A stretch of 64,000 nt of DNA from a virus: IMG/VR virus record IMGVR_UViG_3300035698_035275, positions 2,843-66,842 of that record; one strand, 5' to 3'. This document shows positions 41,111-64,000 of this stretch, piece after piece (positions within the stretch are counted from its first letter, which is position 1; each line of letters starts with the position of its first letter). Position numbers and translations under genes: made by a program. The notes beneath the pieces were generated by a model. The model was not told the origin of the DNA. It did no database searches and worked only from the letters and a program-made list of their open reading frames with translations.

Positions 41111-41671
41111 TTATTCCTCCTTTTCAACGATTGGCAGAGTTATTTCGGATTGGCCCTGGTATTTACCGGATCTTGAATAGTAGTTGGTAGCGCACGCGGC
41201 ACCGCGAAAGAATATAGCCTGCATTATTCCTTCTCTAGCATGCACCCTTACCGGTAATGGGGTGCTGTTGCTTATTTCTATTGTAACCTTCCCGTGCCAC
41301 CCAGGTTCAAGCGGTGTTACATTGACGATTATTCCGCACCTTGCATATGTGCTCTTCCCAATACATATTGCTATTACATTGTCCGGCATGTGGATAGTCT
41401 CTACGGACTTAGCCAGGGCGAATGAGTTAGGCGGTATGTCACAATAATCACCTTCCACCCGTACGAATGATTCCGTCTTCATATTCTTCGGGTCTATCGT
41501 GACATTGTGCACATTATGGAACACTAGGAACTCGTTATCTACACGCAGGTCGTACCCATACGATGACACCCCATACGATATTACCCCACTCGACACCTGC
41601 TTATTAAGAAATGGATCTACTATCTTATGATTTTCAATCTGTCTGTCGTTCAGTATCACCTTTTCCTCCAT
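41111..41671 (-). CDS. dcd: dCTP deaminase
   Basis: SYGVSSYGYDLR, IPPNSFALA, GKSTYARCG, TPLEPGW, YQGQ. Confidence 0.95.
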   Translation of the reverse strand: MEEKVILNDRQIENHKIVDPFLNKQVSSGVISYGVSSYGYDLRVDNEFLVFHNVHNVTIDPKNMKTESFVRVEGDYCDIPPNSFALAKSVETIHMPDNVIAICIGKSTYARCGIIVNVTPLEPGWHGKVTIEISNSTPLPVRVHAREGIMQAIFFRGAACATNYYSRSGKYQGQSEITLPIVEKEE

Positions 41672-44589: not shown

Positions 44590-45909
44590 ATGGACAAGAA
44601 GACCGAGAAAGTTATTGCATCGCTGTTGAAGAAGGATGCAATCAAGCTGATTGACGCTGAAGGCAAGAAGAAGAAAGCCGTGTCTGTCAAGGCTAGCAAC
44701 ATCGATTGCAGTATATCGCTGCCTACGGTGTCGAGTCTGACAGGCAACAAGCAGATGTATGTCGAAATGGATGGTGATATGCACCGCCTGATGGGGGTTG
44801 CCGCTAAGCAGCAGAAGCCAAGAAGCCCCAAATATGACCTCAAGTTCATAGTGGAGGTTGGCGGCAAGAAGAAGTACATCAACCCCGATAAAATCGACGG
44901 GTTCACCAACGATTACGCCGACGCTGACGACGCTGACGACGCTGACGACGCTGACACCAATGAACAGCAGGATGACACGTCCCCCACACCGTCTACCCCC
45001 TTGGCTATTGGTGGTCTGCCCACCAAACCGGTAATGACCGAGGCCGACATCCCGAAAAGATTCCTCGACAAAAAGAAAGTCCCGTACTCCCACATCAAGA
45101 TGTACAACGAGATGAAGAATATGGCCGGTGACGAAATCTCCGAGCTGCATAACGTCATCTTTGGCGTTCCGCCTGACTTGCTGGGTGCCAGCGATGACGA
45201 GGCGGACTTCTACCGGAAGCGCTGCTATTACGGGTACGGTCTTGTTGTCTCGAAGGAGGTCAATATTGAAAAGTTCGTTGAGAATCTCAACGGCCTTGTC
45301 AAGTTTGAGAAGAAGACCAACAACATTGGATCGGTTACTGGCAAGCCCAAGAAGGCGGCAGTGACGGATGACGGAATCGGCACAATCAAAACCGTCGAGG
45401 GCAACCGTGTCAGGGTTAACCCCAGCTCCGTGGTCTTCATAGATGAGGACCCAATCATCAAACGACGCATCCCGAAGAACGGATTCAGAGACGAACTCGC
45501 TGAGAAGCTCTTCTATATGACGATGAAACAGGTCTGCGCCTACGCTGTGGAAATCGGCGCGTGTGACAAGGATGATGTCAAAAAATACCTGAATGCGTCC
45601 GACAACAACAACGATCCGGGTCTTGCTCGCATGGCCATCGGAAACCGCATCCGTGGACAGGTCAATCGAAACGAGCGTGGTGATGCGCCCAAGAAGGAAA
45701 AGAAGAAGTCAGGTGTTAAGGCCGTTCCGGGCGAGAAGTCTCTGGCGCAGTTAGCTGTTAAGGCTGCTGTAAAAGCAAAGGCGAAAGCTGCCACCAAGGA
45801 CACTGTGGAAGAGAAGAGCGCCGACAAAAAGCCGCCGAGTGTAAGAAGCAGTCTGGCCAAGCTCGCTGCCGCCAAGAAGGGCAAGAAGAAGAATAAGGCC
45901 AGTAAGTGA
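44590..45909 (+). CDS. Lys-rich hypothetical protein (possible DNA-binding early protein)
   Basis: AAGGA RBS after AT-rich intergenic; (DAD)n repeat near 44920-44955; Lys/Ala-rich C-terminus. Confidence 0.7.
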   Translation: MDKKTEKVIASLLKKDAIKLIDAEGKKKKAVSVKASNIDCSISLPTVSSLTGNKQMYVEMDGDMHRLMGVAAKQQKPRSPKYDLKFIVEVGGKKKYINPDKIDGFTNDYADADDADDADDADTNEQQDDTSPTPSTPLAIGGLPTKPVMTEADIPKRFLDKKKVPYSHIKMYNEMKNMAGDEISELHNVIFGVPPDLLGASDDEADFYRKRCYYGYGLVVSKEVNIEKFVENLNGLVKFEKKTNNIGSVTGKPKKAAVTDDGIGTIKTVEGNRVRVNPSSVVFIDEDPIIKRRIPKNGFRDELAEKLFYMTMKQVCAYAVEIGACDKDDVKKYLNASDNNNDPGLARMAIGNRIRGQVNRNERGDAPKKEKKKSGVKAVPGEKSLAQLAVKAAVKAKAKAATKDTVEEKSADKKPPSVRSSLAKLAAAKKGKKKNKASK

Positions 45910-46391
45910 TCTACCTGGGACATCCAATAGATATGGCATCAAAGAGGTACGATCCCACCCAGCTCTTGGCAGCAATGTCAGGGGCTGGGTGCCAATCTGT
46001 GTATGTGCCATCTTCAGCGTTCAGGGTGCATACAAACTCCGAGGCGTACGCGTCCGGTGCTGACCCGCGTTCGTTGTGTAGGATAAATGACTTTGCAATG
46101 TCTATGTGCACTTCAGCAATATTTATTTATGCACAGAAGAAGTCCGTATGCCTGCCTATTGAGCTGGAGAATGCGACGAAGGGCAACATAAGGGCGGTAG
46201 ACGGCGGCCTGCTGAATGTGTATGTAGTGTGTCCGTGGGTGTTTAAGTCTGTAAAGATGATAGAGATGGTGACATACGGCGCTCCGTCTAGAATAAATGT
46301 ATACAATAGTGAGGGTGGGCTTATAGAGGACATAGTGTCAAGGTCGGATAGGGTGTCTAACTTGTTATCCAGTGAGCTGCTGGAAGCCTAA
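45906..46391 (+). CDS. Nucleoside 2-deoxyribosyltransferase / nucleotide N-hydrolase-like protein
   Basis: IYLGHPID N-terminus, VYVP, INDFAM..C, SVCLPIELENA (S-x5-E-x3-A catalytic Glu pattern). Confidence 0.55.
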   Translation: MIYLGHPIDMASKRYDPTQLLAAMSGAGCQSVYVPSSAFRVHTNSEAYASGADPRSLCRINDFAMSMCTSAIFIYAQKKSVCLPIELENATKGNIRAVDGGLLNVYVVCPWVFKSVKMIEMVTYGAPSRINVYNSEGGLIEDIVSRSDRVSNLLSSELLEA

Positions 46392-50768: not shown

Positions 50769-53255
50769 ATGTCCTGTGACGGCTGTCCATTACGCGGTGT
50801 AAGCATAAATACAAAAGTGCCTGGGGGTGGTAGTAATAGCCCATCAATAATGCTGGTAGGTGAGGCACCAGGGAGAGAAGAGGACGAATTAAATCAAGTG
50901 TTTGTGGGTCCGGTCGGGGTGTTCCTAAGAGAATGCATGGCCAGCATGGAGGTAGACGCATCCGATATCTACTTCACTAATATTGTAAAGTGCAGGCCAC
51001 CGAATAACAAGCTGGTAGGCAAATATAAAAAGGCCGTAAAGCACTGTAAGGAGTACCTGCTAGAGGAAATAGAAAGGCTGTCCCCGACGGTTATAGTGCC
51101 TCTCGGTGACACAGCAATGGAAGCATTACTAGGAATACGCGGTATTTGGAAGAACCACGGCAGGGTAATAGATAGAGACGGAATCCCTGTAGTACCCACT
51201 TTCCACCCGTCATACGTCAAATTCTACAATAAGAGTGACCAGGTATTTGACTTATACTCCCAGGACCTATATAATGCTGCGGTAATAGCAGAGGGCGGCA
51301 CGCCAGAAATTATAATACCAGACGTTGACTATATAACAGAGGGTGTTACTAATGACGATATATTGCTGCTGCTCAAGGCGGATATACTGTCTATAGACAT
51401 CGAGACTAACACAGTCAGCACGCACTATTGCACCATATCGGCGGATGCTGACAGGGGACCACGAATACTGTCGATATCGTTTTCATGGGATGAGGGCGTC
51501 GCAATGTTTGTCCCATGGGATGAGGAGCACATGCCAGCTATAAAGGCAGTGTTGGAGTCGGACATCCCAAAGGTGGCGCATAACTGGAAATTTGAATACT
51601 CGTGGCTAGTGTTAAAAGAGGGTATTGCCGTTAGCAACATATACATGGATACCATGCTAGCACATTACCTGGTGGACGAAAACAGCAGGCACGGGTTGAA
51701 GGAGCTAGCGTACACGTACACCGATATTGGTGGGTATGACGTGGAGATGGATGTGTACATAGGTGATCACCCGGAGTGTGACCCAAAGAAGAGCGGGTCA
51801 TATGCGAATATACCGCTTAGGCTACTATCTAAGTACAATTGTGGAGACGTGGATGCGACCCTGCGAATAGCGCGTAAGCTTAGCAAGGTAATGGATGACA
51901 AACTGTGGTCACTACATAATAACATACTGGTGCCAGCGGCTGAGATGCTGTCTCGGGCGGAGCTTAGCGGGTTTGAGTTAGATATTGATATGTGGGACTG
52001 CCTGAACAACGAGTATACGGCTAAGGTTAGTGAAGCTATTGATGACGCTATGTCTATTGACGAGGTTAGGCACTTCTGGAAGTATTATAAGGAGTCCACC
52101 AAGGCCAAGGGAGACAGGGTTAATCTTAGGTCTTCCAAGCAGGTATCGCTCTTAATGACGGAGTACTTCAGATTTCCAGTGATAAGGGAAACCGACTCCG
52201 GCAATCCGTCATGGGATTCCGAGGTAATAGACGAGCTGCTAAGGATGGATAGGTACAAGGGGAATAAATTCCTGCCGATACTAAAAAGAGTAAGAAGCAT
52301 TTTGCAGATACAAAGCAACTGTCTAGGGACGACGCCTAAGCAAATAGCGGAGTCGGTTGATGCCAGGGTGCATACGAATTTTATCTTGCATTTTGTAGTC
52401 ACTGGTCGCCTGTCGTCTAGAAACCCAAATATGCAGGCTATTCCTAGAGAGTCTACTGTTGGCCCGTTGAACGTGCCGTCAATAAAGACAATGTATATTT
52501 CCAGGTACGACGGCGGGAACATTGTACAGGCCGACTATAGCCAGATAGAGCTTAGGATATTGGCTATGCTGTCTGGTGATAAGGCGTTCAGGCGCATATT
52601 TGAAGAGGGGCTGGACCCGCATGCTAGTGTTGGGGTTAATATATACAAAATGCTAGAGGGGAAGGACATAGACATAGCGGACCTGCCGAAAGAGTGGAGA
52701 GATAAAGGGAAGACAACCAACTTTGCAATAGTGTATGGGCAGACACCAGAGGGGATGGCTAAAAAGCTAGGCTGTACAGACGCGGAAGCTAAGAAGATGA
52801 TGTCTGCCACCATGTCTACATACTCGGGAATAGACGACCTGCTTAAGGGGTATAGGAATGATGTCATAAAGAATGGGTATGTTGAATCCCCATTTGGCAG
52901 GAGGAGGAGACTGCCGATAATCGAGGGTATGAGTAGGTCAGATAAGAATGCGGCACTGAGAGAGGCCGGTAATCACCCTGTACAAAGTGCCGCGTCGGAC
53001 ATGACCCTATACTCAGCGGTACTACTGGATGCCGAAATCAGAAGACTGGGTATGAAGTCGCACATAATATGCCTTGTGCACGACTCGATAATACTGGATA
53101 CTCCCAGTAATGAGACTGAAAAGGTGTGTAAGATGGTAGGGGATATTATGAGGTCATTACACAAGCATTTCGACTGGATAGACGGCAGTTTCCCGATAGA
53201 GGTAGACGTTGAGTATGGCCCGTCATGGGGCGAGCTTAACGAGTACGAGGCATGA
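50769..53255 (+). CDS. polA: Family A DNA polymerase with N-terminal family-4 uracil-DNA glycosylase domain and 3'-5' exonuclease
   Basis: CxxC, GEAPG, NIVKCRPP, HPS (UDG4); DIET, YNCGD (exo); DYSQIELR, KTTNFAIVYG, VHDS (pol motifs A/B/C). Confidence 0.93.
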   Translation: MSCDGCPLRGVSINTKVPGGGSNSPSIMLVGEAPGREEDELNQVFVGPVGVFLRECMASMEVDASDIYFTNIVKCRPPNNKLVGKYKKAVKHCKEYLLEEIERLSPTVIVPLGDTAMEALLGIRGIWKNHGRVIDRDGIPVVPTFHPSYVKFYNKSDQVFDLYSQDLYNAAVIAEGGTPEIIIPDVDYITEGVTNDDILLLLKADILSIDIETNTVSTHYCTISADADRGPRILSISFSWDEGVAMFVPWDEEHMPAIKAVLESDIPKVAHNWKFEYSWLVLKEGIAVSNIYMDTMLAHYLVDENSRHGLKELAYTYTDIGGYDVEMDVYIGDHPECDPKKSGSYANIPLRLLSKYNCGDVDATLRIARKLSKVMDDKLWSLHNNILVPAAEMLSRAELSGFELDIDMWDCLNNEYTAKVSEAIDDAMSIDEVRHFWKYYKESTKAKGDRVNLRSSKQVSLLMTEYFRFPVIRETDSGNPSWDSEVIDELLRMDRYKGNKFLPILKRVRSILQIQSNCLGTTPKQIAESVDARVHTNFILHFVVTGRLSSRNPNMQAIPRESTVGPLNVPSIKTMYISRYDGGNIVQADYSQIELRILAMLSGDKAFRRIFEEGLDPHASVGVNIYKMLEGKDIDIADLPKEWRDKGKTTNFAIVYGQTPEGMAKKLGCTDAEAKKMMSATMSTYSGIDDLLKGYRNDVIKNGYVESPFGRRRRLPIIEGMSRSDKNAALREAGNHPVQSAASDMTLYSAVLLDAEIRRLGMKSHIICLVHDSIILDTPSNETEKVCKMVGDIMRSLHKHFDWIDGSFPIEVDVEYGPSWGELNEYEA

Positions 53256-54071: not shown

Positions 54072-55238
54072 ATGGCTATAAAGATTAGACGCAGTGTCCT
54101 GGTTGATCAGGCAAAGCAAGCGCAGGAGTCCGGGGGCGGGAAGTATATGAAGTTTCAGGACGGAAAGACATATGTGCGCGTGCTCCCGTTCCTAGTAGAG
54201 AAGGGCATGTATGATGTCGCACTCAAATTTGGAACACACAACAACATACCGGGTGTGCGGGGTCCCGTCACGTGTAGACGCCTTTTCCCGAAGAAGTCCG
54301 CTAAGGGCAAGAGTCTGGAATGCCCTATCTGTATGGCAGTGGAGATGCTGGAGTTAGCCGGTGAGTCTGAGAAGGCTAACAAGCTCCGTGCCAATCCGAA
54401 TCGGTGGGCAATGTACATGTACGATGTGTCGAACAAGCAGGGTCCGAAAACGGCAACCGTCGGATCGCAGATAGCCACTCCTATTCTGAAATACGGGGTG
54501 GACGATGAAGAGTACGGAGATGTATTTGATCCCAAGGTAGGGCGTGATTTCATCGTTGAGAAGACCGGCACCGGTATGGATACTGAGTACCAGGTACGTA
54601 TTCGCGATGCAAGCAGATGCAAACCGGTGCCTGCGGCTGTCATGGCTAAGGTCAACTCGCTATTTGACGAGCTAAGACCGAAGTCATACGCGGAATTGCT
54701 CGAGATGATGGGTCCTTTGGGTCTGAACATTCCAAAAACCGAGTCGGCAATAGCAGCCAACAACGACGACGAGGAAGAGGACGACGTACCATTCGACAGC
54801 AGCGATGATGAGGACGACGACGAGGAAGAGGACGAAGACATCGATGAGGATGACGACGACGAAGAGGAAGAGGACGAAGACATCGATGAGGATGACGAGG
54901 ATGACGAGGATGACGAGGATGACGAGGATGACGAGGACGAGGAAATCGACTATGAGTCCTTAGGGTTCATCAACAGTGACGACCTGGAGGATACAGTGGG
55001 AAAGGTTGATGCATCCAATCCCAAAGTCAAGAAGCTGTTCGATAAGTGGGGGGCGGAAGACGGCACTAAGAGCGGCCTGCTGGTCATTCTGAAGAAGCAG
55101 AAGGTCTTTGCCGTGCAGAAACCCGGCAAGGCTGGCGGTGGTGGTGCTCTGGACAGGCTGAAGAAGAAGATGGAGAGCGCTAGCGACTCGAAAGCGAAGG
55201 TAAAAGCAAAAGCGAAGAAAACCGGCAGGAAGAAATAA
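54072..55238 (+). CDS. gp32-like single-stranded DNA-binding protein
   Basis: VRVLP, H..C..CPIC zinc site, FDPKVGRDF..KTG.G..TEY; long acidic tract. Confidence 0.8.
   Translation: MAIKIRRSVLVDQAKQAQESGGGKYMKFQDGKTYVRVLPFLVEKGMYDVALKFGTHNNIPGVRGPVTCRRLFPKKSAKGKSLECPICMAVEMLELAGESEKANKLRANPNRWAMYMYDVSNKQGPKTATVGSQIATPILKYGVDDEEYGDVFDPKVGRDFIVEKTGTGMDTEYQVRIRDASRCKPVPAAVMAKVNSLFDELRPKSYAELLEMMGPLGLNIPKTESAIAANNDDEEEDDVPFDSSDDEDDDEEEDEDIDEDDDDEEEEDEDIDEDDEDDEDDEDDEDDEDEEIDYESLGFINSDDLEDTVGKVDASNPKVKKLFDKWGAEDGTKSGLLVILKKQKVFAVQKPGKAGGGGALDRLKKKMESASDSKAKVKAKAKKTGRKK
54763..54945 (+). repeat. Coding low-complexity repeats (GATGACGAG units and a duplicated block) encoding poly-D/E
   Basis: Read directly within the SSB gene. 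Confidence 0.85.
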
Positions 55239-55244
55239 CTAGCC

Positions 55245-56378
55245 ATGCCCAAATTCGGTAATGTAGACCTGATAATAGGCGGTCAGTACGGATCAGAGGG
55301 AAAAGGTAAACTCGCCGGGTATGTATCCCGGCGGGTTCCTTATTCCGTCGCCGTGTGCAACTTCACATCTCAAGCCGGTCATACATTTGTGTATGACGAA
55401 GGCAGAAAGGTTATTACGCAACAACTACCAACAGCTATAGTGAGTAGTTGTGAGAATATAATGATAGGGCCTGGTGCTATCATAGATGAAGACGTACTGG
55501 AGAGGGAGATAAACGAGTACGGACTAACAGAAGCCAGACTTACTATAGACAGCAACGCTATAGTGATAGACCAGAGGCACAAAGACGCTGAGAGGGCCAA
55601 CGCCATAAGGGTAGCATCAACGATGAAGGGCAATGGAGCTGCAGCAGCGGAGAAGTGTCTCAGATTCCAGGGCTTGAGGACTGCTGGCGATGACTCGTTC
55701 AGATTTAAGCAGTACGTTGGTGATGTGAGGTCGGCACTACACAATACGCACGTGATGGGTGGTGACATACTGCTGGAGGGGTCGCAAGGGTTCGACCTGG
55801 ATGTTAATCTTGGATTTTATCCATTTGTCACCAGCAGGGGGACCACTAGCGCGGCAGAGCTTAGCAGGTGCGGCCTTTCGCCACAAAGCGTAAGGAATGT
55901 ATTCGGCGCATATCGGACGTTCCCAATACGCGTTGGGAACTTGAAGGATGAAAACGGTGTGGAGGTGGGTAATTCCGGGCCTGTATACGATGACCAGACG
56001 GAGATGACGTGGGATGAGCTGTCTAGCCAATATGGGGGTGCTGATAAGCTGCTGGAGAGGACCACAGTGACAGGCAGGGTCAGAAGGGTGTTTACGTTCT
56101 CCCGGACCCAATTTGCCAGATCGATAGTGTCGAACGGGGTAAACTGCATATTTATAAATTACGCTAACTACATCGACGGGGCCTTGTACGGTGCCAGTGG
56201 TGATAGTGACGATTCCCCATCGCGTAATGCCAAGCTTCTTGACTGGTTGCAGCAGAACATCGTTCCCGTCCTTTCGAAGGTGCACGATATAGGTGAGAGG
56301 GTCATTATACCACTTCTTATTGGTACTGGCCCCGCCGACTCTGACATGTTGTCGATTAACATGATTGTGGGGTCCTAA
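55245..56378 (+). CDS. purZ: N6-succino-2-amino-deoxyadenylate synthase (PurZ-type PurA paralogue)
   Basis: GQYGSEGKG (Ser replacing the PurA catalytic Asp), AGHT, EGSQGF, YPFVTSR, RTFPIRVG, ERTTVT..RR, NYANY replacing PurA TKLD. Confidence 0.85.
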   Translation: MPKFGNVDLIIGGQYGSEGKGKLAGYVSRRVPYSVAVCNFTSQAGHTFVYDEGRKVITQQLPTAIVSSCENIMIGPGAIIDEDVLEREINEYGLTEARLTIDSNAIVIDQRHKDAERANAIRVASTMKGNGAAAAEKCLRFQGLRTAGDDSFRFKQYVGDVRSALHNTHVMGGDILLEGSQGFDLDVNLGFYPFVTSRGTTSAAELSRCGLSPQSVRNVFGAYRTFPIRVGNLKDENGVEVGNSGPVYDDQTEMTWDELSSQYGGADKLLERTTVTGRVRRVFTFSRTQFARSIVSNGVNCIFINYANYIDGALYGASGDSDDSPSRNAKLLDWLQQNIVPVLSKVHDIGERVIIPLLIGTGPADSDMLSINMIVGS

Positions 56379-56379
56379 T

Positions 56380-57369
56380 ATGCGAGGGTTCGAAGTAAAA
56401 TTCGTGTCCGGCTATACAGGGTCTGGCAAGACGGCCTATACTGATAGGTTGCACCTGGATACTGGGTGGCCGGTACTGCACATAGGTGACTCGTTAAGGG
56501 AGTTTGGTATATCGTCCAAATCCATATCCGAGATGCCGGATGCGCACGCTCCCGCGTCGTTGGACAAGATGGTTAATCAAACGGTGGCTAATTTCATTGC
56601 TGAAGCGTTAGGACCTGAAGGAGGGGGCGGCGTAATAATAGATGGATTTCCACGTAAGCCGTCGCAGGTTCACGAGGCATATGAGATGGTGTGTGGGCTG
56701 GTGCGTTACGCACCAGGAGAAATACGCCTAAGATTTGTATTTGTGACGGCACCTATTGATACAAGAATATCCAGGGTGCTGAGTAGCAGGAGCGAGGCCA
56801 GAAGAGAGTTATCTGTAATGAAGATAGAATCGGAGTCTGCCGATATGGATAACTCTATAAAAGTGGCAAAGGAGATCGAGAGAGGTAAGCCAGCGTTAGC
56901 AATGAGCATTATGGTTACAGAGACGGGGATAAAAGAGATATACCCAGGAGTGATGGTGGCAGATGTACTGGTGGTTGGAGACGGGTACAGAATGCCCGTG
57001 CATGCTGGGGACGTTGGGATAGACTTAAGCTCAAACGGCAGGGTTGAAATACTCCCTGGGGAGTTCAGCAATGTAGAAACCGGGGTAAGCGTTAAGATAG
57101 ATGATAGATGCTGGGGAAGAGTGACCGGCAGATCATCGGCTGTATGGGGTAAGGGAATAATGGTGATGGAGGGAGTCATTGACCCAGGGTATACCGGTGA
57201 GCTGTTTATGCTCGTGTATAACCCTGGGAAAAAGGCGGTGGTGGTGGATAGGGGAGACAGAATAGCCCAACTAATTCTAATACCAAGGGTTGACTATAGC
57301 GTATTGAGGGTAGACAGTCTGCCAAAGACGAGTAGAGGCAATAAAGGATTCGGCTCAACCGGTAAATGA
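56380..57369 (+). CDS. Adenylate/NMP-kinase-like domain fused to trimeric dUTPase
   Basis: GYTGSGKT, IGDSLR, IDGFPR (ADK family); GIDL, GRSS, GVIDPGYTG, GDRIAQL, RGNKGFGSTG (dUTPase motifs 1-5). Confidence 0.88.
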   Translation: MRGFEVKFVSGYTGSGKTAYTDRLHLDTGWPVLHIGDSLREFGISSKSISEMPDAHAPASLDKMVNQTVANFIAEALGPEGGGGVIIDGFPRKPSQVHEAYEMVCGLVRYAPGEIRLRFVFVTAPIDTRISRVLSSRSEARRELSVMKIESESADMDNSIKVAKEIERGKPALAMSIMVTETGIKEIYPGVMVADVLVVGDGYRMPVHAGDVGIDLSSNGRVEILPGEFSNVETGVSVKIDDRCWGRVTGRSSAVWGKGIMVMEGVIDPGYTGELFMLVYNPGKKAVVVDRGDRIAQLILIPRVDYSVLRVDSLPKTSRGNKGFGSTGK

Positions 57370-57387: not shown

Positions 57388-59571
57388 ATGAATAACAGAA
57401 GCAAGTTGGTCCTGTCACCAGATAGGAAAACAGCGATATTTGGGGAGAGGTACGCCAAGAAGGGTGAAGATTCGGTGGAGTCTGTCATGCACAGAGTAGC
57501 GATGGCAGTAGCTACCAGTTATGAGAGCAACCACGGCGGCAAGCTGGAGGATACTGCCGATATAGTGGATGAGTGGGTAGGGTATATGTCGAGGTTCGAG
57601 TTTGTTCCTGGCGGTCGTATTCTGTCTAATGCAGGCGTTGACAAGAATCTGCTGAACTGCTTTGTAGTGCCGGTGGATGACAGCATAGGGGGCATATTCG
57701 ACTCGCTGAAAAGAAGCATGATGATACAAGGGGTTGGTGGTGGTGTTGGGTTCAACTTCGGCGGAATAAGGCCGAAGGGGTATCCGACATCCGGCCTTGG
57801 TGTGGCCTCTGGCCCGTGCAGCTTTATAGATGTATTTGATAAGGCCAGTGATACAATAAGCTCTACCTCTGACAGGAAAGCCGCTAATATGGGGATACTG
57901 CCAGTGTGGCACCCAGACATACGGGAGTTTATCAGATCAAAGGTAGGGAACGACGGCAATACTGGTAGATGGATAAAATTCAATATATCAGTGGCTGTGA
58001 ATAACAAGTTTATCAATGCTGTCAAGTCGGGGTCCGGATTTGACTTGATGTGGGATGGAAAGGTAGTAGACACAATCGACGCGGCGGGATTGTGGAAGGA
58101 GATGGTGGATAGTCAATGGCTGTGTGGTGACCCTGGTTTGTGGAATTATGATACAGCCAACGAAATGAATAATACCGGGTACTTCCAGGAGCTGATAGGT
58201 ACAAATCCGTGTGGTGAGATATCCCTGCCTGCTTGGGGTTCGTGCTGTCTGGGTTCAATAAATCTCAGCAAATTCGTTGTCGATGGGTCGGTTGACATAC
58301 CAGCCCTTGAGAGGGTCGCTGGTTCAGCGGTGAAATTCCTAGACTCGGTAATAACAGAAAATGAATACCTGTTTGATGAGATGGAAGCGGAGGCCAAGCT
58401 ATCCAGGAGAATAGGGCTTGGAGTGATGGGCGTAGCTCACGCGTTAATGAAGATGGGTATTAGATACGGCAGTGAGGAGGCCAGATTGGTTGTTGGGTCG
58501 ATGATGACCACAATAAGAGACGCAGCATACGAGACATCTACAATGCTGGCAACATGTATGGGGTCGTTCACTGGGTATGACGAGAAGAAATATACGTCCA
58601 AAAAGTCAGGGTATACTAAGTCGCTCCCTAACGGGGTAATGGACAAGATAAAAGCACGCGGGATAAGAAATTCAACACTGCTCACGGTTGCCCCGACTGG
58701 AACGACATCGGTTGTAGCAGGTTCATCGTCTGGTATTGAGCCTGTATACTCGTTGAAATTCGTACAGAAGAGGTTCAAGGACGGGTCGTGGCACTCTGAG
58801 AATGTAATGGACCCTATATACGAGGAGTGGCTTAATAAAAACCCCGAAGGTGCTGCCGTTCCTGACTATTTTGTGACGTCGAAGAACATACATCCGGATG
58901 ATCACCTGAAGATGCAATTGGCTGTGCAGGCGGTGGTGGATAACAGCATAAGCAAGACAATAAATATGCCAAGTCACGCGACTAGGCAGGAAGTATCAAA
59001 AGTGCTGCTGGACGCCATGACGGGCGGCGCTAAGGGCTGTACTATATACAGGGACGGCTCTTTGTCTCACCAACCCCTGAGTGACACGCCTAGTACAAGA
59101 AACAAGGGTGTAAAGATTAGGCGTGGGCTGACGTATGAAATAAGTACGCCACAGGGGAAGGCATATGTGACCATAAACGACTTTGAGCAGGGTGGTGGTC
59201 CGATGCAGGTGTTCATAAGGGCTGATAAGCCAGGGTCGGATTCCTACGCATATTGCAATGCAATGGGTAGGCTGATATCGATAGGGCTGCAAGACGGCAC
59301 CGACCCGAAGAGAATAGCAAACACTCTAATGGGTATAAACTCATCCGGTGTGACATGGGAATTTATGCCAGACAGCCAGGATAAGCCGGTCACGATAACT
59401 TCAGTGCCAGACGCGGTAGCAAAGCTTATGCTATCCTACTGTGGGGAGCCGGTAGTAATAATGGATAATGCGTCGTCGAAGGCTGTTATGTGCAGCAACT
59501 GCGGCGCTCCGATGGAAATGATAGAGGGTTGTCTAACGTGCAGGAGCTGCGGAAATGCTCTGTGCCAATAA
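57388..59571 (+). CDS. nrdJ: Adenosylcobalamin-dependent (class II) ribonucleotide reductase with TSCPD-like domain
   Basis: PGGRIL, NCFV, GGGVG, TNPCGE, RRIGLGVMG, APTGT, SKTIN, TSVPD, terminal Cys ribbon; no beta subunit gene adjacent. Confidence 0.9.
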   Translation: MNNRSKLVLSPDRKTAIFGERYAKKGEDSVESVMHRVAMAVATSYESNHGGKLEDTADIVDEWVGYMSRFEFVPGGRILSNAGVDKNLLNCFVVPVDDSIGGIFDSLKRSMMIQGVGGGVGFNFGGIRPKGYPTSGLGVASGPCSFIDVFDKASDTISSTSDRKAANMGILPVWHPDIREFIRSKVGNDGNTGRWIKFNISVAVNNKFINAVKSGSGFDLMWDGKVVDTIDAAGLWKEMVDSQWLCGDPGLWNYDTANEMNNTGYFQELIGTNPCGEISLPAWGSCCLGSINLSKFVVDGSVDIPALERVAGSAVKFLDSVITENEYLFDEMEAEAKLSRRIGLGVMGVAHALMKMGIRYGSEEARLVVGSMMTTIRDAAYETSTMLATCMGSFTGYDEKKYTSKKSGYTKSLPNGVMDKIKARGIRNSTLLTVAPTGTTSVVAGSSSGIEPVYSLKFVQKRFKDGSWHSENVMDPIYEEWLNKNPEGAAVPDYFVTSKNIHPDDHLKMQLAVQAVVDNSISKTINMPSHATRQEVSKVLLDAMTGGAKGCTIYRDGSLSHQPLSDTPSTRNKGVKIRRGLTYEISTPQGKAYVTINDFEQGGGPMQVFIRADKPGSDSYAYCNAMGRLISIGLQDGTDPKRIANTLMGINSSGVTWEFMPDSQDKPVTITSVPDAVAKLMLSYCGEPVVIMDNASSKAVMCSNCGAPMEMIEGCLTCRSCGNALCQ

Positions 59572-61215: not shown

Positions 61216-62196
61216 ATGGCGAGGAATGACAGCAGAATAGTTAACGAGCTATCCAGGAAGCTTGGAAGACCGCAAAGCGACGCTGACGGATCTCCCCATG
61301 TGTCGGTTGGTGGTGATTACTCGTTCTGCTGTCCAATGTGCATAAGTAGAAGCAGGTCAAAGACCAGAGATACCAAATACAAGCTGATGATTAACATTGG
61401 CAAGGGGATATACCACTGTTACAGGTGCAAGGCTAGCGGTAGCTTGCACGACCTCATAGACATTAAGATTGGGATGGCTGCGTCGGCGGTGGATAGGGCG
61501 GCTGTTAGACCGCCATCCGGTATGCCGTCGCACTCCACGGAAATAGTGCGTACAGGTGATAAGTGGAAATGGCTGTCGTCACGAAGGAAGATAGGCAGAG
61601 GCATAGATCCAGTATACGACTGGGACGGCACGCCCTGGGCTAAAGGGCTGTTTATGGAGTCATTGGGTATGCCGTGGCACATAATATTAGTATTCCCGAA
61701 TTCCGATTACTGGCTGGCATACGCTACTATTAAAGAGATAGAACCAAAGACAATAAACGAAACAGGGAAGAAGATAGTATACAATCCTCGCATACTCAAG
61801 GACGTAGATGACCTATGGTTAGTGGAAGGCCCAATGGATTGTCTATCCTGCCCTAACTCGGTCGCTTCTCTCGGTAAAGAATACTGGCCTGGTTTGGGGC
61901 GAGCACTGCTGGATATTGGATTTAGTAGGTTGGTCATTTGCTTAGACGGGGGTGAGTTGGAGTCTACGGTTGAGATGGCCGTTAAGTTGTCGCGAAATGG
62001 AATAAACAGCAACAGAATATTCTACTGCCTGCTGCCGAACGGGTATGATCCTAATGACGTGGGGTCGTCCAGTGTGGAAATGGCAGAATACATGAATTCG
62101 TCGTGTGACGGGCTAATACACCCAATGCACACACTACCAATAATACGAAGAATGCCAAGAATGGCCATCCCAGAGGTGGACTATGATAAATCCTGA
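61216..62196 (+). CDS. DNA primase (Zn finger + TOPRIM)
   Basis: CPMC..HCYRC, LVEGPMD, CLDG, DPND; follows helicase. Confidence 0.82.
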   Translation: MARNDSRIVNELSRKLGRPQSDADGSPHVSVGGDYSFCCPMCISRSRSKTRDTKYKLMINIGKGIYHCYRCKASGSLHDLIDIKIGMAASAVDRAAVRPPSGMPSHSTEIVRTGDKWKWLSSRRKIGRGIDPVYDWDGTPWAKGLFMESLGMPWHIILVFPNSDYWLAYATIKEIEPKTINETGKKIVYNPRILKDVDDLWLVEGPMDCLSCPNSVASLGKEYWPGLGRALLDIGFSRLVICLDGGELESTVEMAVKLSRNGINSNRIFYCLLPNGYDPNDVGSSSVEMAEYMNSSCDGLIHPMHTLPIIRRMPRMAIPEVDYDKS

Positions 62197-62944
62197 CAAA
62201 CTGACACCCGTTGAGCATTTGGCTGCTATTGGTGTGTACCTAAAGAGAGATGACCTGTTCAAGGTGGCTGGGGTGTGTGGCGGTAAGGCCAGATCGTGTT
62301 TTAAGCTGATTGACAAATACGCTGGTGACTCGAAGGTGCTGGTCACTAAGTGCTCAAGGTTCAGCCCCCAGGGTATAATAGTGAGTGCGCTGGCGGCACG
62401 CTTAGGCAAGAAGTCCATGATATTCGTTCCGTGGTCTAAAGAGGATACAGAGGAGAATACCAGGATAATAAATAACGGTGGGCAGTTGATTAAGTGCTAC
62501 CCTGGTTATCCGTCCGTTATAGATAAGAAGATGAAGGAACTCACCCCAGACGACGCATATATTATTCCGTTTGGAATGGAATGCTCCGAGGCGGTGGAGT
62601 CCACCAGAGCGCAGACCAGGAATATTCCATTTGACAAGATAGATAGGATAGTGATTACCCTGGGATCCGGGATGTCACTTAGTGGCCTGCTGTGGGGGAT
62701 GAAGGATAAAGGCGTCCACAAAAAAGTGCTAGCGGTAATGATCGGTAAAGACACTAGGCCATCAGTAATAAAATGGTCGCCTGCCGATATGTTGGAGGAT
62801 GTGGAGTTTGTCCAGAGCGGCTACAAATACAATAGGGTAGTAAAAAGCGAAATCGGCTCGGTAGCGCTGGATCCTCATTACGAGGCAAAGGCCGCAGAAC
62901 TCGTGCAACCGGGAGACTTATTCTGGATAGTAGGCAAAAGATAG
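62183..62944 (+). CDS. PLP-dependent enzyme (fold type II, ACC deaminase/cysteine synthase-like)
   Basis: LTPVE..LKRDDL..GGKAR (PLP lysine), SPQ, GSGMS phosphate loop, LDPHYEAK. Confidence 0.85.
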   Translation: MINPDKLTPVEHLAAIGVYLKRDDLFKVAGVCGGKARSCFKLIDKYAGDSKVLVTKCSRFSPQGIIVSALAARLGKKSMIFVPWSKEDTEENTRIINNGGQLIKCYPGYPSVIDKKMKELTPDDAYIIPFGMECSEAVESTRAQTRNIPFDKIDRIVITLGSGMSLSGLLWGMKDKGVHKKVLAVMIGKDTRPSVIKWSPADMLEDVEFVQSGYKYNRVVKSEIGSVALDPHYEAKAAELVQPGDLFWIVGKR

Positions 62945-62953
62945 GCGTATAAA

Positions 62954-64000
62954 ATGGACCACAAGTCATTATTGGAGAGATTTGCACAGGAAGCAATCGA
63001 TGCTGGTATTACTGACAAGTCGGAAGCGTCGAAATTCATAAGGGTGGCCCTAATAAAAGAAATGGGGGTTCTGCCGTCCAGCATGATGGGAATGGACAGG
63101 TCACTGGATATACGGGGTAATGGCGTCAAGGCTGGCCGTAATCTGTTAGCGTACACTGAGGATGCCCCTACTGATATGTACGCTAACCAGAAAAAAGCCG
63201 GTAGGCTGTCCGTGTTCGAGGGCAGGCTAGCCGACCTTTGCATCAAGATGTGGTCGGATGCTGGTGATATAGTGCTGGACCCCTTCTCCGGAAGAGTGAC
63301 CAGGCTGGCATTCTCGGTCGAGAATGGTAGGAAGTACATTGGATTTGACACATCGCCCGAGGCGTGCAAGTACAATAATGATTGGTTGGCTGGCACCGAG
63401 TACGGGGACGATGCACTGATAGTGAACGAGTCATTGATAACGTTCGACGGGCTTAATGGCGAGTCGGCTGATATGGTTTTTACCTGCCCCCCGTACTGGA
63501 ACAGCGAGTTTTACGGAGATAACGGTAATGGCATAGAAGGAACGGAATCATACGGGGACTTCATAGAGGAAATAGCTGCCATATTCTGTAAGGCGTACGC
63601 GGCGCTAAAGCCGGATTGCTACTTCGTGGTGGTTGTTAAGGACTTCTACCTGCATAGGCAGATGGTGAGTCTCCACTCTGACATAATAAGGGTAATGAGT
63701 GCTATCGGTGCCGTCACGTGGGATGTAATCGCTAAGATGGCATCTAATACCAGGATTATGTTCCACAGGGACATAGCAGCTAACAGAAGGACAGCTCAAA
63801 CCCACGAATACGTATTGGTGTTCAGGAAATCAGCTCATAAGAAGAACAGGGACCAGTATAGGAATAACTGTTATAATAAGAACACCAAGAGGAAGGAAGA
63901 GGATGAAGGTCTGGCCCGTGCCAGGGCAAAAATCCTAAGCGATGCCGGAGTAGATGTTAGTTCCATATTGCCGATATTGAAATATGATAAGGTTAAATAG
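62954..64000 (+). CDS. SAM-dependent DNA amino-methyltransferase-like protein
   Basis: VLDPFSG (SAM binding) precedes FTCPPYW (catalytic-type motif); LKP..YF; HEYVLVFRK. Confidence 0.8.
   Translation: MDHKSLLERFAQEAIDAGITDKSEASKFIRVALIKEMGVLPSSMMGMDRSLDIRGNGVKAGRNLLAYTEDAPTDMYANQKKAGRLSVFEGRLADLCIKMWSDAGDIVLDPFSGRVTRLAFSVENGRKYIGFDTSPEACKYNNDWLAGTEYGDDALIVNESLITFDGLNGESADMVFTCPPYWNSEFYGDNGNGIEGTESYGDFIEEIAAIFCKAYAALKPDCYFVVVVKDFYLHRQMVSLHSDIIRVMSAIGAVTWDVIAKMASNTRIMFHRDIAANRRTAQTHEYVLVFRKSAHKKNRDQYRNNCYNKNTKRKEEDEGLARARAKILSDAGVDVSSILPILKYDKVK

What the first reader, a model, noticed from the sequence alone, without database searches (positions are those of the whole stretch)
56380..57369. 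Adenylate-kinase/dUTPase fusion coupled to purZ: candidate dedicated dZMP kinase
The ATG lies 1 nt after the purZ stop. The N-terminal half has ADK-family motifs (P-loop, GD.LR, DGFPR) and the C-terminal half has all five dUTPase motifs. Described Z pathways rely on host PurB and host kinases to reach dZTP. Inference: a phage-encoded kinase that activates dZMP while the fused trimeric domain sanitises the pool (dUTP, or possibly dGTP/dATP in place of MazZ/DatZ). With purZ, nrdJ and the NDT-like gene, this would be a Z pathway variant I do not know to be described.
Basis: partly seen in the sequence, partly recalled or inferred. Interest (0 to 1): 0.85.

Follow-up and report, generated by a model that had tools for sequence, protein, structure and literature searches.

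The report
Kinase-dUTPase fusion beside phage PurZ
An uncultured phage that probably replaces adenine with 2-aminoadenine (Z) in its DNA encodes, right after its key PurZ gene, one protein joining an adenylate-kinase-like nucleotide kinase to a dUTPase-like pyrophosphatase, and the kinase may perform a phosphorylation step so far credited to the host.

Summary
ORF 56380-57369 (329 aa) starts 1 nt after the purZ stop. It fuses a short-LID adenylate-kinase-family domain to a trimeric dUTPase domain.

The dUTPase half is of a published kind. DutZ of PurZ0 actinophages hydrolyses dATP, dGTP and dUTP (PMC12884076). This record has no DatZ or MazG and carries a DmtZ-like gene. Membership of the DutZ clade stayed unresolved.

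The kinase half is the new part.
- It has no relative in 50,697 phage records.
- The same family lies within -6 to +118 nt of the purZ stop in 13 of 80 IMG/VR purZ loci.
- There it is fused or adjacent to either a Dut-like or a non-homologous all-alpha MazG-like pyrophosphatase.
- A search centred on the fusion found purZ upstream in 5 of 5 loci.
- The adenine-reading Gln of adenylate kinases is invariant.

The best reading, a phage dZMP kinase, is inferred and not shown. I found no paper describing it. This scan noted the all-alpha version before, on other DNA (e1-3413255). The verdict is a new variant of a known kind.

The parts
55245..56378 (+). purZ-type adenylosuccinate-synthetase homologue (377 aa), with Ser17 at the place of the PurA catalytic Asp
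   Evidence: Pfam PF00709 at E 5e-37 and PHROG 1211. NCBIfam PurZ NF038379 is the best model at 223 bits, below its 300-bit cut-off. Q14, G16 and S17 are invariant with the L002 and Ghobes PurZ. In the tree it lies outside the large PurZ clade, beside the PurZ0 references, with weak support.
56380..57369 (+). The finding: a single 329-aa ORF fusing a kinase to a dUTPase-like domain. Its ATG lies 1 nt after the purZ stop.
   Evidence: The identical protein is on record from 2 contigs.
56380..56889 (+). N-terminal short-LID NMP-kinase domain of the adenylate-kinase / UMP-CMP-kinase family (aa 1 to about 170). Key residues: K17, R40, D88, R92, Q96, R132.
   Evidence: These residues are invariant in 13 purZ-linked kinases. 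The profile hits Aquifex Adk at E 6.5e-17. The AF2 model has pLDDT 85.5, and its top Foldseek hits are UMP-CMPK, AK5 and AK1.
56890..56952 (+). Linker between the two domains (aa 171-191); boundaries approximate
   Evidence: The kinase model loses confidence after aa 171. The Pfam dUTPase match starts at aa 208 and the PHROG 135 match at aa 156.
56953..57369 (+). C-terminal trimeric dUTPase-fold domain (aa 192-329), DutZ-like by context
   Evidence: PF00692 at E 1e-24. TIGR00576 at 102.7 bits against a 102.55-bit cut-off. PDB dUTPases at E 3e-21. 45% identity to Ghobes gp55, the characterised DutZ. Tree placement is unresolved.
45906..46391 (+). DmtZ/NDT-like ORF (161 aa), the probable dAMP hydrolase / deoxyribose-5-phosphate transferase of the pathway
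   Evidence: It aligns with Ghobes gp53 (DmtZ) and keeps Y3, D9, P35, N61 and E86, which correspond to Y6, D12, P57, N77 and E103 (residues named in PMC12884076). BLASTP against the NDT half of P0005 gives E 2e-4. Atlas structure matches to NDT clusters have TM 0.61-0.66. There is no Pfam NDT hit, and my own AF2 model failed at pLDDT 38.
41111..41671 (-). dCTP deaminase, a source of dUTP that also needs a dUTPase
   Evidence: Pfam DCD at E 1.6e-33. TIGR02274 at 162.8 bits, above its cut-off.
57388..59571 (+). Class II-type ribonucleotide reductase, lying between the fusion gene and the helicase
   Evidence: Pfam Ribonuc_red_lgC at E 5.5e-106, plus TSCPD.
50769..53255 (+). Family A DNA polymerase with an N-terminal family-4 UDG-like domain; the upstream anchor of the shared replication module
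   Evidence: PolA homologues lie upstream of purZ in 11 of the 13 kinase loci. It does not reach the NCBIfam DpoZ cut-offs.

Best explanation
The gene encodes a bifunctional enzyme of a 2-aminoadenine (Z) DNA pathway. It works at both ends of the deoxynucleoside-monophosphate stage.

Proposed flow:
1. The C-terminal trimeric dUTPase-fold domain acts like DutZ. It strips pyrophosphate from dATP, keeping A out of the DNA and giving dAMP.
2. It also acts on dGTP, giving dGMP, the PurZ substrate.
3. It also acts on the dUTP made by the phage's own dCTP deaminase.
4. PurZ with host PurB, and probably the DmtZ-like enzyme, turn dGMP and dAMP into dZMP.
5. The N-terminal adenylate-kinase-family domain then phosphorylates dZMP to dZDP. 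Published pathways assign this step to host enzymes. Host NDK would finish to dZTP.
6. To avoid a futile cycle with its own fused dATPase, the kinase is expected to prefer dZMP over dAMP.

What is shown: the domain identities, intact catalytic residues, the fusion, the coupling to purZ, and the recurrent purZ-kinase-pyrophosphatase neighbourhood.

What comes from the literature: DutZ and DmtZ activities, and the host origin of the later steps.

What is inferred: the substrates of both domains in this protein.
For: 1. The kinase looks catalytically competent and belongs to the ADK family.
- G16, K17, G36, R40, D88, P91, R92, Q96 and R132 are invariant in 13 of 13 purZ-linked sequences.
- The profile hits Aquifex Adk at 6.5e-17, Thermus Adk at 1.5e-14 and human UMP-CMPK at 3e-13.
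- The AF2 model has pLDDT 85.5, and its best Foldseek hits are short NMP kinases.

2. Q96 aligns with the Gln of DGFPRTxxQ in the adenylate kinases, and with Asn in UMP-CMP kinase. That this Gln reads the 6-amino purine is recalled knowledge of E. coli Adk Gln92.

3. The link to purZ is strict.
- An HMM of the kinase, run over 5,910 ORFs of all loci held, hit only 14 ORFs. Each lies directly after purZ on the same strand, with the domain starting -6 to +118 nt from the purZ stop. That is 13 of 80 IMG/VR purZ loci plus the window.
- Searches started from the kinase-pyrophosphatase fusion found purZ immediately upstream in 5 of 5 loci.
- There is no tblastn hit for the kinase in 50,697 phage records.

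4. The partner enzyme is swapped while the pairing is kept.
- All-alpha MazG-like partner: fused in L002, L013, L014, L018 and L022; separate in L012 and L019.
- Trimeric Dut-like partner: fused in the window; adjacent genes in L025, L029, L031, L035, L038 and L066.

5. The published activities fit. Ghobes DutZ and Wayne DmtZ-DutZ hydrolyse dATP, dGTP and dUTP (PMC12884076, section 20). The same paper says that dZMP to dZTP is done by host enzymes, and its Fig. 7 legend leaves room for 'uncharacterized phage proteins'.

6. The record has no YfbR-like HD protein (DatZ), no MazG, no PurB and no NDK, and it has a DmtZ-like gene.

7. Across 81 purZ loci, kinase and DatZ-like HD genes never co-occur.
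- Both present: 0 loci.
- Kinase only: 14 loci.
- HD only: 54 loci.
- Neither: 13 loci.
Against: No substrate was or could be tested.

On the kinase:
- The Gln fits adenine as well as 2-aminoadenine, so a plain (d)AMP kinase is not excluded. No residue reading the 2-amino group was identified.
- The domain fails the curated family cut-offs: Pfam ADK 21.3 against 26.8 bits, NCBIfam adk 26 against 168 bits.

On the purZ linkage:
- It may partly be inheritance within one broad phage lineage. PolA lies upstream in 11 of 13 kinase loci and DnaB downstream in 7 of 13.
- The kinase label needs only 5 changes on the PurZ tree.
- The kinase/DatZ exclusivity has a naive Fisher p of 1.1e-8 but rests on only 2 independent contrasts on well-supported branches, so it is not significant once relatedness is allowed for.

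On the Dut domain:
- It is about as similar to a canonical dUTPase in the PDB (3lqw; about 56 of 118 aligned positions identical, counted by eye) as to DutZ (45%).
- Its tree is an unresolved polytomy.
- A plain dUTPase is needed anyway, downstream of the phage's dCTP deaminase.

On the record:
- It is estimated at 64% complete, so DatZ, MazZ or another kinase could lie in the missing part.
- PolA is not a DpoZ by NCBIfam cut-offs.
- That the DNA actually contains Z is not shown.

On sampling: only the best 80 of 574 purZ relatives were kept, each with 6-kb flanks.
Confidence: 0.5

Rival explanations
1. Broad-range phage dNMP kinase. The domain phosphorylates several dNMPs (as the T4 and T5 dNMP kinases do by function) to recycle host-DNA breakdown products. 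It is fused to a pool-sanitising pyrophosphatase, and dZMP is only one of several substrates.
For: The catalytic residues are intact. Phage dNMP kinases are a well-known kind (recalled). The fold matches both AMP and UMP-CMP kinases about equally. The record shows no other nucleotide kinase, though I did not search for one systematically.
Against: A broad kinase fused to a dATPase would rebuild dADP from the dAMP it has just made. The family is found only beside purZ wherever context is known (14 of 14, and 5 of 5). It has no detectable relative in 50,697 phage records, which include the classical dNMP-kinase phages. The invariant Gln is the adenylate-kinase state.
Confidence: 0.2
2. True (deoxy)adenylate kinase managing the adenine-nucleotide pool. 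Examples would be regenerating ADP/ATP for PurZ and RNR, or equilibrating dADP with dATP so that the fused pyrophosphatase can also drain dADP.
For: The best sequence matches are adenylate kinases, and the Gln is conserved. The fusion to a probable dATPase, and the lack of co-occurrence with DatZ-like HD genes, would fit joint removal of dADP and dATP. The preprint 10.1101/2025.10.22.683976 says that DatZ-type domains remove dATP and dADP (passage seen).
Against: At cellular ATP/ADP ratios an AMP-type kinase drives dAMP towards dADP, which works against exclusion of A (inference from the adenylate-kinase equilibrium). Hosts already have Adk. The NMP-binding segment carries a family-specific NPxAP-like motif unlike that of ADKs (A57 and P58 invariant in 9 of 9; mostly kept).
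Confidence: 0.12
3. Pyrimidine route. The C-terminal domain is an ordinary dUTPase downstream of the phage's dCTP deaminase, and the kinase is a dUMP/dTMP/dCMP (or modified-dUMP) kinase of the UMP-CMP-kinase type. The position beside purZ would then be mere gene order.
For: A dCTP deaminase is present. The Dut domain passes the canonical dUTPase models. The top Foldseek hit of the kinase model is human UMP-CMP kinase. The all-alpha partners in sister loci match the dUTPase_2 model and T4-type dCTPase/dUTPase genes.
Against: The specificity position is Gln in 13 of 13 sequences, not the Asn of UMP-CMP kinase. No thymidylate synthase of either type is in the record. The strict adjacency to purZ across loci whose kinase domains are only 17-26% identical to the window's would go unexplained.
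Confidence: 0.1
4. No kinase chemistry. The P-loop domain would be a nucleotide-sensing regulatory module of the pyrophosphatase, or the fusion would be an assembly artefact of two adjacent genes.
For: In 6 sister loci the kinase and the Dut-like gene are separate ORFs. DutZ enzymes show cooperative kinetics (PMC12884076, section 20).
Against: All phosphoryl-transfer residues are invariant. The frame is open throughout. The identical protein is on record from 2 contigs. Fusions of the same kinase with the all-alpha partner are frequent.
Confidence: 0.05

Closest known systems
DutZ, and the DmtZ-DutZ fusion, of PurZ0 actinophages (Gordonia phage Ghobes gp55; Arthrobacter phage Wayne) - PMC12884076
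   Same: Both are trimeric dUTPase-fold domains in a purZ phage that lacks DatZ and MazZ. The window's domain is 45% identical to Ghobes gp55. In both cases the domain is fused at its N-terminus to another Z-pathway enzyme. A DmtZ-like gene is also present in the window.
   Different: The N-terminal partner here is an NMP kinase, not the NDT-like DmtZ. The word 'kinase' does not occur in that paper. Activity on dATP and dGTP is not shown for this domain, and its clade membership is unresolved. The host and phage lineage are unknown and are not actinophage-like by gene order.
Adenylate kinase / UMP-CMP kinase family (short-LID NMP kinases; Aquifex Adk 2RGX, Thermus Adk 3CM0, human UMP-CMPK 1TEV, AK1, AK5)
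   Same: The fold, the P-loop, the NMP-binding Arg, the DGFPR motif followed by the specificity Gln, and the LID-base Arg are shared.
   Different: Identity is only about 20%. The domain is below the curated Pfam and NCBIfam cut-offs. It has a family-specific NPxAP-like segment in the NMP-binding part. It is encoded by phages, always next to purZ, and is fused or adjacent to a dNTP pyrophosphatase.
Host guanylate kinase as the dZMP kinase of described Z pathways (stated in preprint 10.1101/2025.10.22.683976, introduction passage seen)
   Same: It would perform the same proposed reaction, dZMP to dZDP.
   Different: It is a different protein family (guanylate kinase against ADK-like) and is host-encoded. 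If the reading is right, the phage enzyme would be a non-orthologous replacement.
Kinase plus all-alpha (MazG / dUTPase_2-like) pyrophosphatase fusions beside purZ in uncultured phages (L002, L013/L014, L018, L022, L099; earlier scan note e1-3413255)
   Same: They share the kinase family (E 1e-17 to 1e-36 against the family HMM), the same position after purZ, and the same logic of kinase plus dNTP pyrophosphatase.
   Different: The pyrophosphatase is a different fold. L018 adds an NDT-like third domain. The window holds the only kinase fused to a trimeric dUTPase that I saw: none among the 13 loci, and none among the 20 of 55 kinase relatives I scanned with Pfam.
Classical phage dNMP kinases (T4 gp1, T5 dNMP kinase, T7 gp1.7) - recalled
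   Same: They are phage-encoded monophosphate kinases that support phage-specific dNTP pools.
   Different: There is no detectable sequence similarity. The window's kinase domain has no tblastn hit at E <= 0.01 in the 50,697-record phage collection.

Membership tests
Adenylate kinase / UMP-CMP kinase (NMP kinase) family | Walker A P-loop with the catalytic Lys | tested here: met
   GYTGSGKT at aa 11-18. G16 and K17 are invariant in 13 of 13 sequences.
Adenylate kinase / UMP-CMP kinase (NMP kinase) family | NMP-binding Arg (GxxxR), the DGxPR motif and the LID-base Arg | tested here: met
   G36, R40, D88, P91, R92 and R132 are invariant. They align with GDILR and DGFPR of Aquifex and Thermus Adk.
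Adenylate kinase / UMP-CMP kinase (NMP kinase) family | Three-layer CORE fold with an NMP-binding subdomain and a short LID | tested here: met
   AF2 model with pLDDT 85.5 and pTM 0.81. Foldseek top hits are UMP-CMPK 7e9v at E 5.9e-8, AK5 and AK1, with TM 0.5-0.65.
Adenylate kinase / UMP-CMP kinase (NMP kinase) family | Score above the curated family thresholds | tested here: not met
   Pfam ADK 21.3 bits against 26.8. NCBIfam adk 26.3 bits against 168. The family profile nevertheless reaches E 6.5e-17 against solved Adks.
Adenylate kinase proper (AMP-specific) | Gln four residues after the DGFPR Arg, which reads the adenine | tested here: met
   Q96 is invariant. It aligns with Gln in the Adks and with Asn in human UMP-CMPK. 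The role of this Gln is recalled, not tested.
Adenylate kinase proper (AMP-specific) | AMP/dAMP phosphorylation activity | not testable with these tools
   This needs an enzyme assay.
Trimeric dUTPase (PF00692) | Five conserved motifs and a score above the family thresholds | tested here: met
   Motifs lie at aa 213-216, 250-253, 265-273, 292-298 and 319-328. PF00692 scores 87.2 bits against 22. TIGR00576 scores 102.7 against 102.55. PDB dUTPases match at E 3e-21.
DutZ (dATP/dGTP/dUTP pyrophosphatase of Z phages) | Membership of the monophyletic DutZ clade | tested here: inconclusive
   The tree of 31 Dut domains is a polytomy. The window groups only weakly (81/86) with two proteins of unknown context. 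The paper's own data set is in supplements that I could not open.
DutZ (dATP/dGTP/dUTP pyrophosphatase of Z phages) | Encoded in a purZ genome that lacks DatZ and MazZ | tested here: met
   purZ is adjacent. No YfbR-like HD protein and no MazG is found in the 66.8-kb record. The record is estimated at 64% complete.
DutZ (dATP/dGTP/dUTP pyrophosphatase of Z phages) | Hydrolysis of dATP and dGTP while sparing dZTP | not testable with these tools
   This needs an enzyme assay.
PurZ (succino-amino-deoxyadenylate synthase) | Ser in place of the PurA catalytic Asp, and PurZ as the best family model | tested here: met
   S17 in GSEGKGK, invariant with the L002 and Ghobes PurZ. NF038379 is the top model at 223 bits but is below its 300-bit cut-off.
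DmtZ (NDT-family dAMP hydrolase/transferase), for ORF 45906-46391 | The residues mutated in Ghobes DmtZ (Y6, D12, P57, N77, E103) | tested here: met
   Y3, D9, P35, N61 and E86 align with them (residue list from PMC12884076). Identity is only 20-27%.
DmtZ (NDT-family dAMP hydrolase/transferase), for ORF 45906-46391 | NDT fold or NDT family model | tested here: inconclusive
   No Pfam NDT hit. My own AF2 model has pLDDT 38. The Atlas model matches NDT clusters at TM 0.61-0.66, which is a lead only.
Classical phage dNMP kinases (T4 gp1, T5, T7 gp1.7) | Sequence homology | tested here: not met
   No tblastn match for aa 1-175 in 50,697 phage records at E <= 0.01.

The most novel reading that the evidence does not exclude
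A purZ-linked family of adenylate-kinase-like enzymes is the missing phage-encoded dZMP kinase, and it tells Z from A at the monophosphate level. With a dATP/dGTP pyrophosphatase of either of two unrelated folds, fused or adjacent, it forms a two-ended gate: dNTP is taken down to dNMP, converted, and only dZMP is taken back up. This would define a second architecture of Z-genome clusters, used in place of the DatZ-based one.
Probability: 0.4. Interest if true: 0.8.

Novelty: new variant of a known kind. Interest (0 to 1): 0.7.

Why it matters
Published Z-genome pathways leave the steps from dZMP to dZTP to host enzymes (PMC12884076, introduction and Fig. 7 legend; preprint 10.1101/2025.10.22.683976).

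A phage kinase dedicated to dZMP would fill that gap. It would add a possible new checkpoint for keeping adenine out of the DNA. It would also give synthetic biologists a compact part, kinase plus pool-sanitising pyrophosphatase in one protein, for making Z-DNA in cells.

The recurrence of the kinase with two unrelated pyrophosphatase folds is a clean natural experiment. It suggests that the pairing itself is what selection keeps.

The substrate question can be tested directly with ordinary enzyme assays.

Tried and rejected
Searches that gave little or nothing:
- Close-relative search for the whole fusion in IMG/VR found nothing. The same was true for P0024 and P0058.
- The word-indexed search of 5.8 billion proteins returned only the window's own protein at full length.
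- The single metagenome scan found one locus, matched by the Dut half only, which was not informative.
- The genome-contig scan gave 600 pattern matches and no confirmed relative.
- phmmer of the whole protein against the PDB saw only the Dut half. The kinase needed the family profile.

Analyses that failed or stayed unresolved:
- The composite alignment A5 for a full-length fold misaligned the kinases, so I dropped it and did not fold it. No full-length model was made.
- The fold of the DmtZ-like ORF failed at pLDDT 38, and its homologue search returned only itself.
- The Dut-domain tree was unresolved. It held no canonical reference dUTPases apart from 7 IMG/VR and metagenome loci without purZ.
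- The kinase/DatZ exclusivity did not survive a phylogenetic control, with only 2 independent pairs.

Readings I considered and rejected:
- 'dADP dismutase feeding the dATPase' as the main reading, because cellular ATP would drive dAMP back to dADP. This is inference.
- The window's PolA as a DpoZ, because it falls below the NCBIfam cut-offs.

Limits on the evidence:
- I did not run complex prediction, because the report claims no binding.
- Supplements of PMC12884076 (trees, presence/absence tables) were not opened and may bear on DutZ clade membership.
- Subscription papers (the 2021 Science papers; the 2023 PurZ0 paper) are not in the library. I cite them only through what the two papers I read say, or as recalled.
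- The claim that the kinase is not in print rests (listings) and on term searches inside the two relevant papers.
Full report
**The observation**

The window holds a purZ-type gene at 55245-56378. One base after its TAA stop, an ATG at 56380 opens a 329-aa frame ending at 57369.

The N-terminal half carries GYTGSGKT, GDSLR and DGFPRKPSQ. Pfam gives AAA_17 at E 2.3e-9 over aa 11-149, and a sub-threshold ADK match (21.3 bits against 26.8).

The C-terminal half matches dUTPase PF00692 at E 1e-24 over aa 208-328, with all five trimeric-dUTPase motifs. PHROGs agrees on the dUTPase half and on PurZ.

The identical protein is on record from two contigs, so the fusion is not a single assembly slip.

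**The setting**

The record is an IMG/VR virus contig of 66,842 bases, estimated at 64% complete. Around the gene lies a replication and nucleotide module:
- SNF2 helicase and dCTP deaminase on the minus strand
- RecA-like protein and a phosphoesterase
- family A polymerase with an N-terminal family-4 UDG-like domain
- an acidic 388-aa protein
- purZ, then the fusion
- class II ribonucleotide reductase
- DnaB-like helicase and primase
- a PLP enzyme and a DNA methyltransferase

PurZ has Ser17 where PurA has its catalytic Asp. Its best NCBIfam model is PurZ, below the cut-off.

The record has no YfbR-like HD protein (DatZ), MazG, ThyA, ThyX, PurB or NDK. tblastn with DatZ-like, MazG-like and DUF5664-like proteins from sister loci also finds nothing.

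- It aligns with Ghobes gp53, which is the published DmtZ by its Y6, D12, P57, N77 and E103. All five positions are kept.
- BLASTP against the NDT half of an NDT-dUTPase fusion gives E 2e-4.
- The Atlas model matches NDT clusters at TM 0.61-0.66.
- My own fold failed, and Pfam sees nothing.

**The dUTPase half is a known kind**

Poubanne et al. [quoted passage not shown] They found that all 98 PurZ0 genomes carry dutZ, and that in 77 genomes it is fused to the NDT-like DmtZ.

The window's Dut domain is 45% identical to Ghobes gp55. Its best cultured-phage matches, Microbacterium phages Goodman and IndiRoo, have purZ 1.2-1.7 kb upstream. Its best database relatives include a DUF5664-dUTPase fusion and an NDT-dUTPase fusion.

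Against this, the domain is about as similar to a canonical dUTPase in the PDB. A 31-row tree is an unresolved polytomy. The phage's own dCTP deaminase would in any case require a dUTPase.

I therefore call the domain DutZ-like by context, not by demonstrated clade membership.

**The kinase half is the new part**

phmmer of aa 1-175 against 1.84 billion representative proteins gave only 55 hits at E <= 1e-3. The top ones are long multi-ADK proteins.

I scanned 20 of the 55 with Pfam. Four of them (P0024, P0052, P0058, P0059) pair the same N-terminal kinase with a Pfam all-alpha MazG/dUTPase_2/PRA-PH match at the C-terminus. Four more of about 280-330 aa (P0036, P0046, P0053, P0065) show a similar C-terminal acidic-helix pattern in the alignment, but no Pfam match there.

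No phage in the 50,697-record collection has a detectable relative of the kinase.

A pattern search in IMG/VR found L002. This 4.4-kb contig carries, in order:
- the end of a polA gene
- a small ORF
- an acidic protein
- purZ
- a kinase-all-alpha fusion, overlapping the purZ stop

**Survey of purZ neighbourhoods**

Of 574 IMG/VR purZ relatives, the best 80 were kept with 6-kb flanks. I ran a kinase HMM over all 5,910 ORFs of the loci held.
- It hit 14 ORFs: the window and 13 of the 80 purZ loci (13 of the 79 with at least 600 bp downstream).
- Every hit is on the purZ strand, with the domain starting -6 to +118 nt from the purZ stop.

The gene that follows the kinase is of two kinds.
- An all-alpha pyrophosphatase: fused in L002, L013, L014, L018 and L022; separate in L012 and L019. 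L018 adds an NDT-like third domain.
- A trimeric Dut-like protein, as an adjacent separate gene: L025, L029, L031, L035, L038 and L066.

The window is the only case seen where the kinase and the trimeric Dut fold share one chain.

A search started from the all-alpha fusions, not from purZ, returned five loci. Two are near-identical and one is new (L099). All five have purZ immediately upstream.

**What kind of kinase**

In 13 purZ-linked sequences G16, K17, G36, R40, D88, P91, R92, Q96 and R132 are invariant.

Their profile hits Aquifex and Thermus adenylate kinases (E 6.5e-17 and 1.5e-14), human UMP-CMP kinase (3e-13) and AK1. An AF2 model (pLDDT 85.5, pTM 0.81) matches short-LID NMP kinases.

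Q96 aligns with the Gln of DGFPRTxxQ in the adenylate kinases and with Asn in UMP-CMP kinase. In E. coli Adk that Gln reads the adenine of AMP (recalled). This points to a 6-aminopurine acceptor, which Z also is.

The NMP-binding segment has a family-specific NPxAP-like motif. Whether it reads the 2-amino group is speculation.

**Mechanism proposed**

The Dut domain takes dATP, dGTP and dUTP down to monophosphates. PurZ with host PurB, and DmtZ, make dZMP. The kinase domain takes dZMP back up, and host NDK finishes.

The domain identities, the residues, the fusion and the neighbourhood are shown. [quoted passage not shown] The substrates of this particular protein are inferred.

A kinase that accepted dAMP would fight its own fused dATPase. 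That is the main argument for Z over A.

**Results that cut against the reading**

- The Gln fits A as well as Z.
- The kinase loci share polA upstream (11 of 13) and DnaB downstream (7 of 13) at 21-32% identity. Part of the linkage may therefore be old shared ancestry.
- On a quick PurZ tree the kinase label needs 5 changes, and the window's PurZ sits apart from the other kinase loci, near the PurZ0 references. Support is only 91% SH-aLRT, with a long-branch warning.
- Kinase and DatZ-like HD genes never co-occur (0 both, 14 kinase only, 54 HD only, 13 neither). The naive Fisher p is 1.1e-8, but only 2 phylogenetically independent contrasts exist, so no significance can be claimed.
- The record is incomplete.
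- PolA is not a DpoZ by the curated cut-offs.
- Z in the DNA is not shown.

**Novelty**

Full-text searches found no paper that reports a phage kinase in a purZ cluster. The searches were PurZ+dUTPase, PurZ+kinase+dZMP, 2-aminoadenine+adenylate kinase+phage, PurZ+MazZ+kinase, PurZ+kinase as whole words, and PurZ0.

'Kinase' occurs 0 times in PMC12884076. It occurs once in the preprint, for the host enzyme. 'Adenylate', 'ADK' and the AAA_17, AAA_18 and ADK Pfam accessions occur 0 times there. Subscription papers and supplements were not searchable.

My survey reaches the same family independently and adds the trimeric-Dut version.

**Verdict**

This is a new variant of a known kind: a Z cluster of the DutZ/DmtZ type with an added, undescribed kinase. 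The dZMP-kinase reading is plausible but untested.

Noticed in passing
window 45906-46391 (+): A 161-aa ORF with no Pfam hit that keeps the five residues mutated in Ghobes DmtZ (Y, D, P, N, E). Its Atlas model matches NDT clusters. It is probably a DmtZ-like dAMP hydrolase/transferase, encoded 9 kb away from purZ.
   Followed up: partly
L018 7137-8690 (+): A 517-aa ORF directly after purZ that appears to join three domains: the ADK-like kinase, an all-alpha MazG-like pyrophosphatase and an NDT-like C-terminus beginning VVYLAGPI. The domains were read from the translation and from tblastn. No family scan was run on the third domain.
   Followed up: partly
81 purZ loci (window, L002, L010-L088): Kinase and DatZ-like HD genes never co-occur within the stretches held (0 both, 14 kinase only, 54 HD only, 13 neither). 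This suggests two alternative cluster architectures. It is not significant once relatedness is allowed for.
   Followed up: partly
window 41111-41671 (-): A dCTP deaminase passes its equivalog model, yet the record has neither ThyA nor ThyX. dUTP would be made by the phage while thymidylate synthesis is left to the host or to the missing part of the genome.
   Followed up: partly
window 50769-53255 (+): The family A DNA polymerase carries an N-terminal family-4 uracil-DNA-glycosylase-like domain (aa 21-167). It scores far below both NCBIfam DpoZ models. Whether it prefers dZTP is unknown.
   Followed up: no
window 54072-55238 (+): A 388-aa protein just upstream of purZ has a roughly 70-residue run of Asp/Glu. 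Weak homologues (26-29% identity) lie in the same position in 4 of the 13 kinase loci. It is possibly an SSB-like replication protein, but no family match was found.
   Followed up: partly
window 62183-62944 (+) and 62954-64000 (+): A PLP-dependent (PALP family, threonine-dehydratase-like) enzyme is translationally coupled to the primase gene. It is followed by an N6/N4 DNA methyltransferase that is cut by the contig end. A PLP enzyme in a replication module is unexplained.
   Followed up: no
L010/L011 7166-8066; L027 2792-4739; L057 1766-3290: Other purZ loci show further combinations downstream of purZ: DUF5664-like plus Dut-like; a 361-aa protein with an unknown N-terminus plus a Dut-like domain, followed by an HD protein and a PrimPol-like gene; and a small MazG-like gene plus Dut-like plus HD. 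Dut-like enzymes are therefore not confined to actinophage PurZ0 clusters.
   Followed up: partly
window 56946-56955: An AGGAG lies 2 nt before an in-frame ATG (Met192) at the start of the Dut domain. The spacing is short for a ribosome-binding site. Separate initiation of a free Dut domain was not examined.
   Followed up: no
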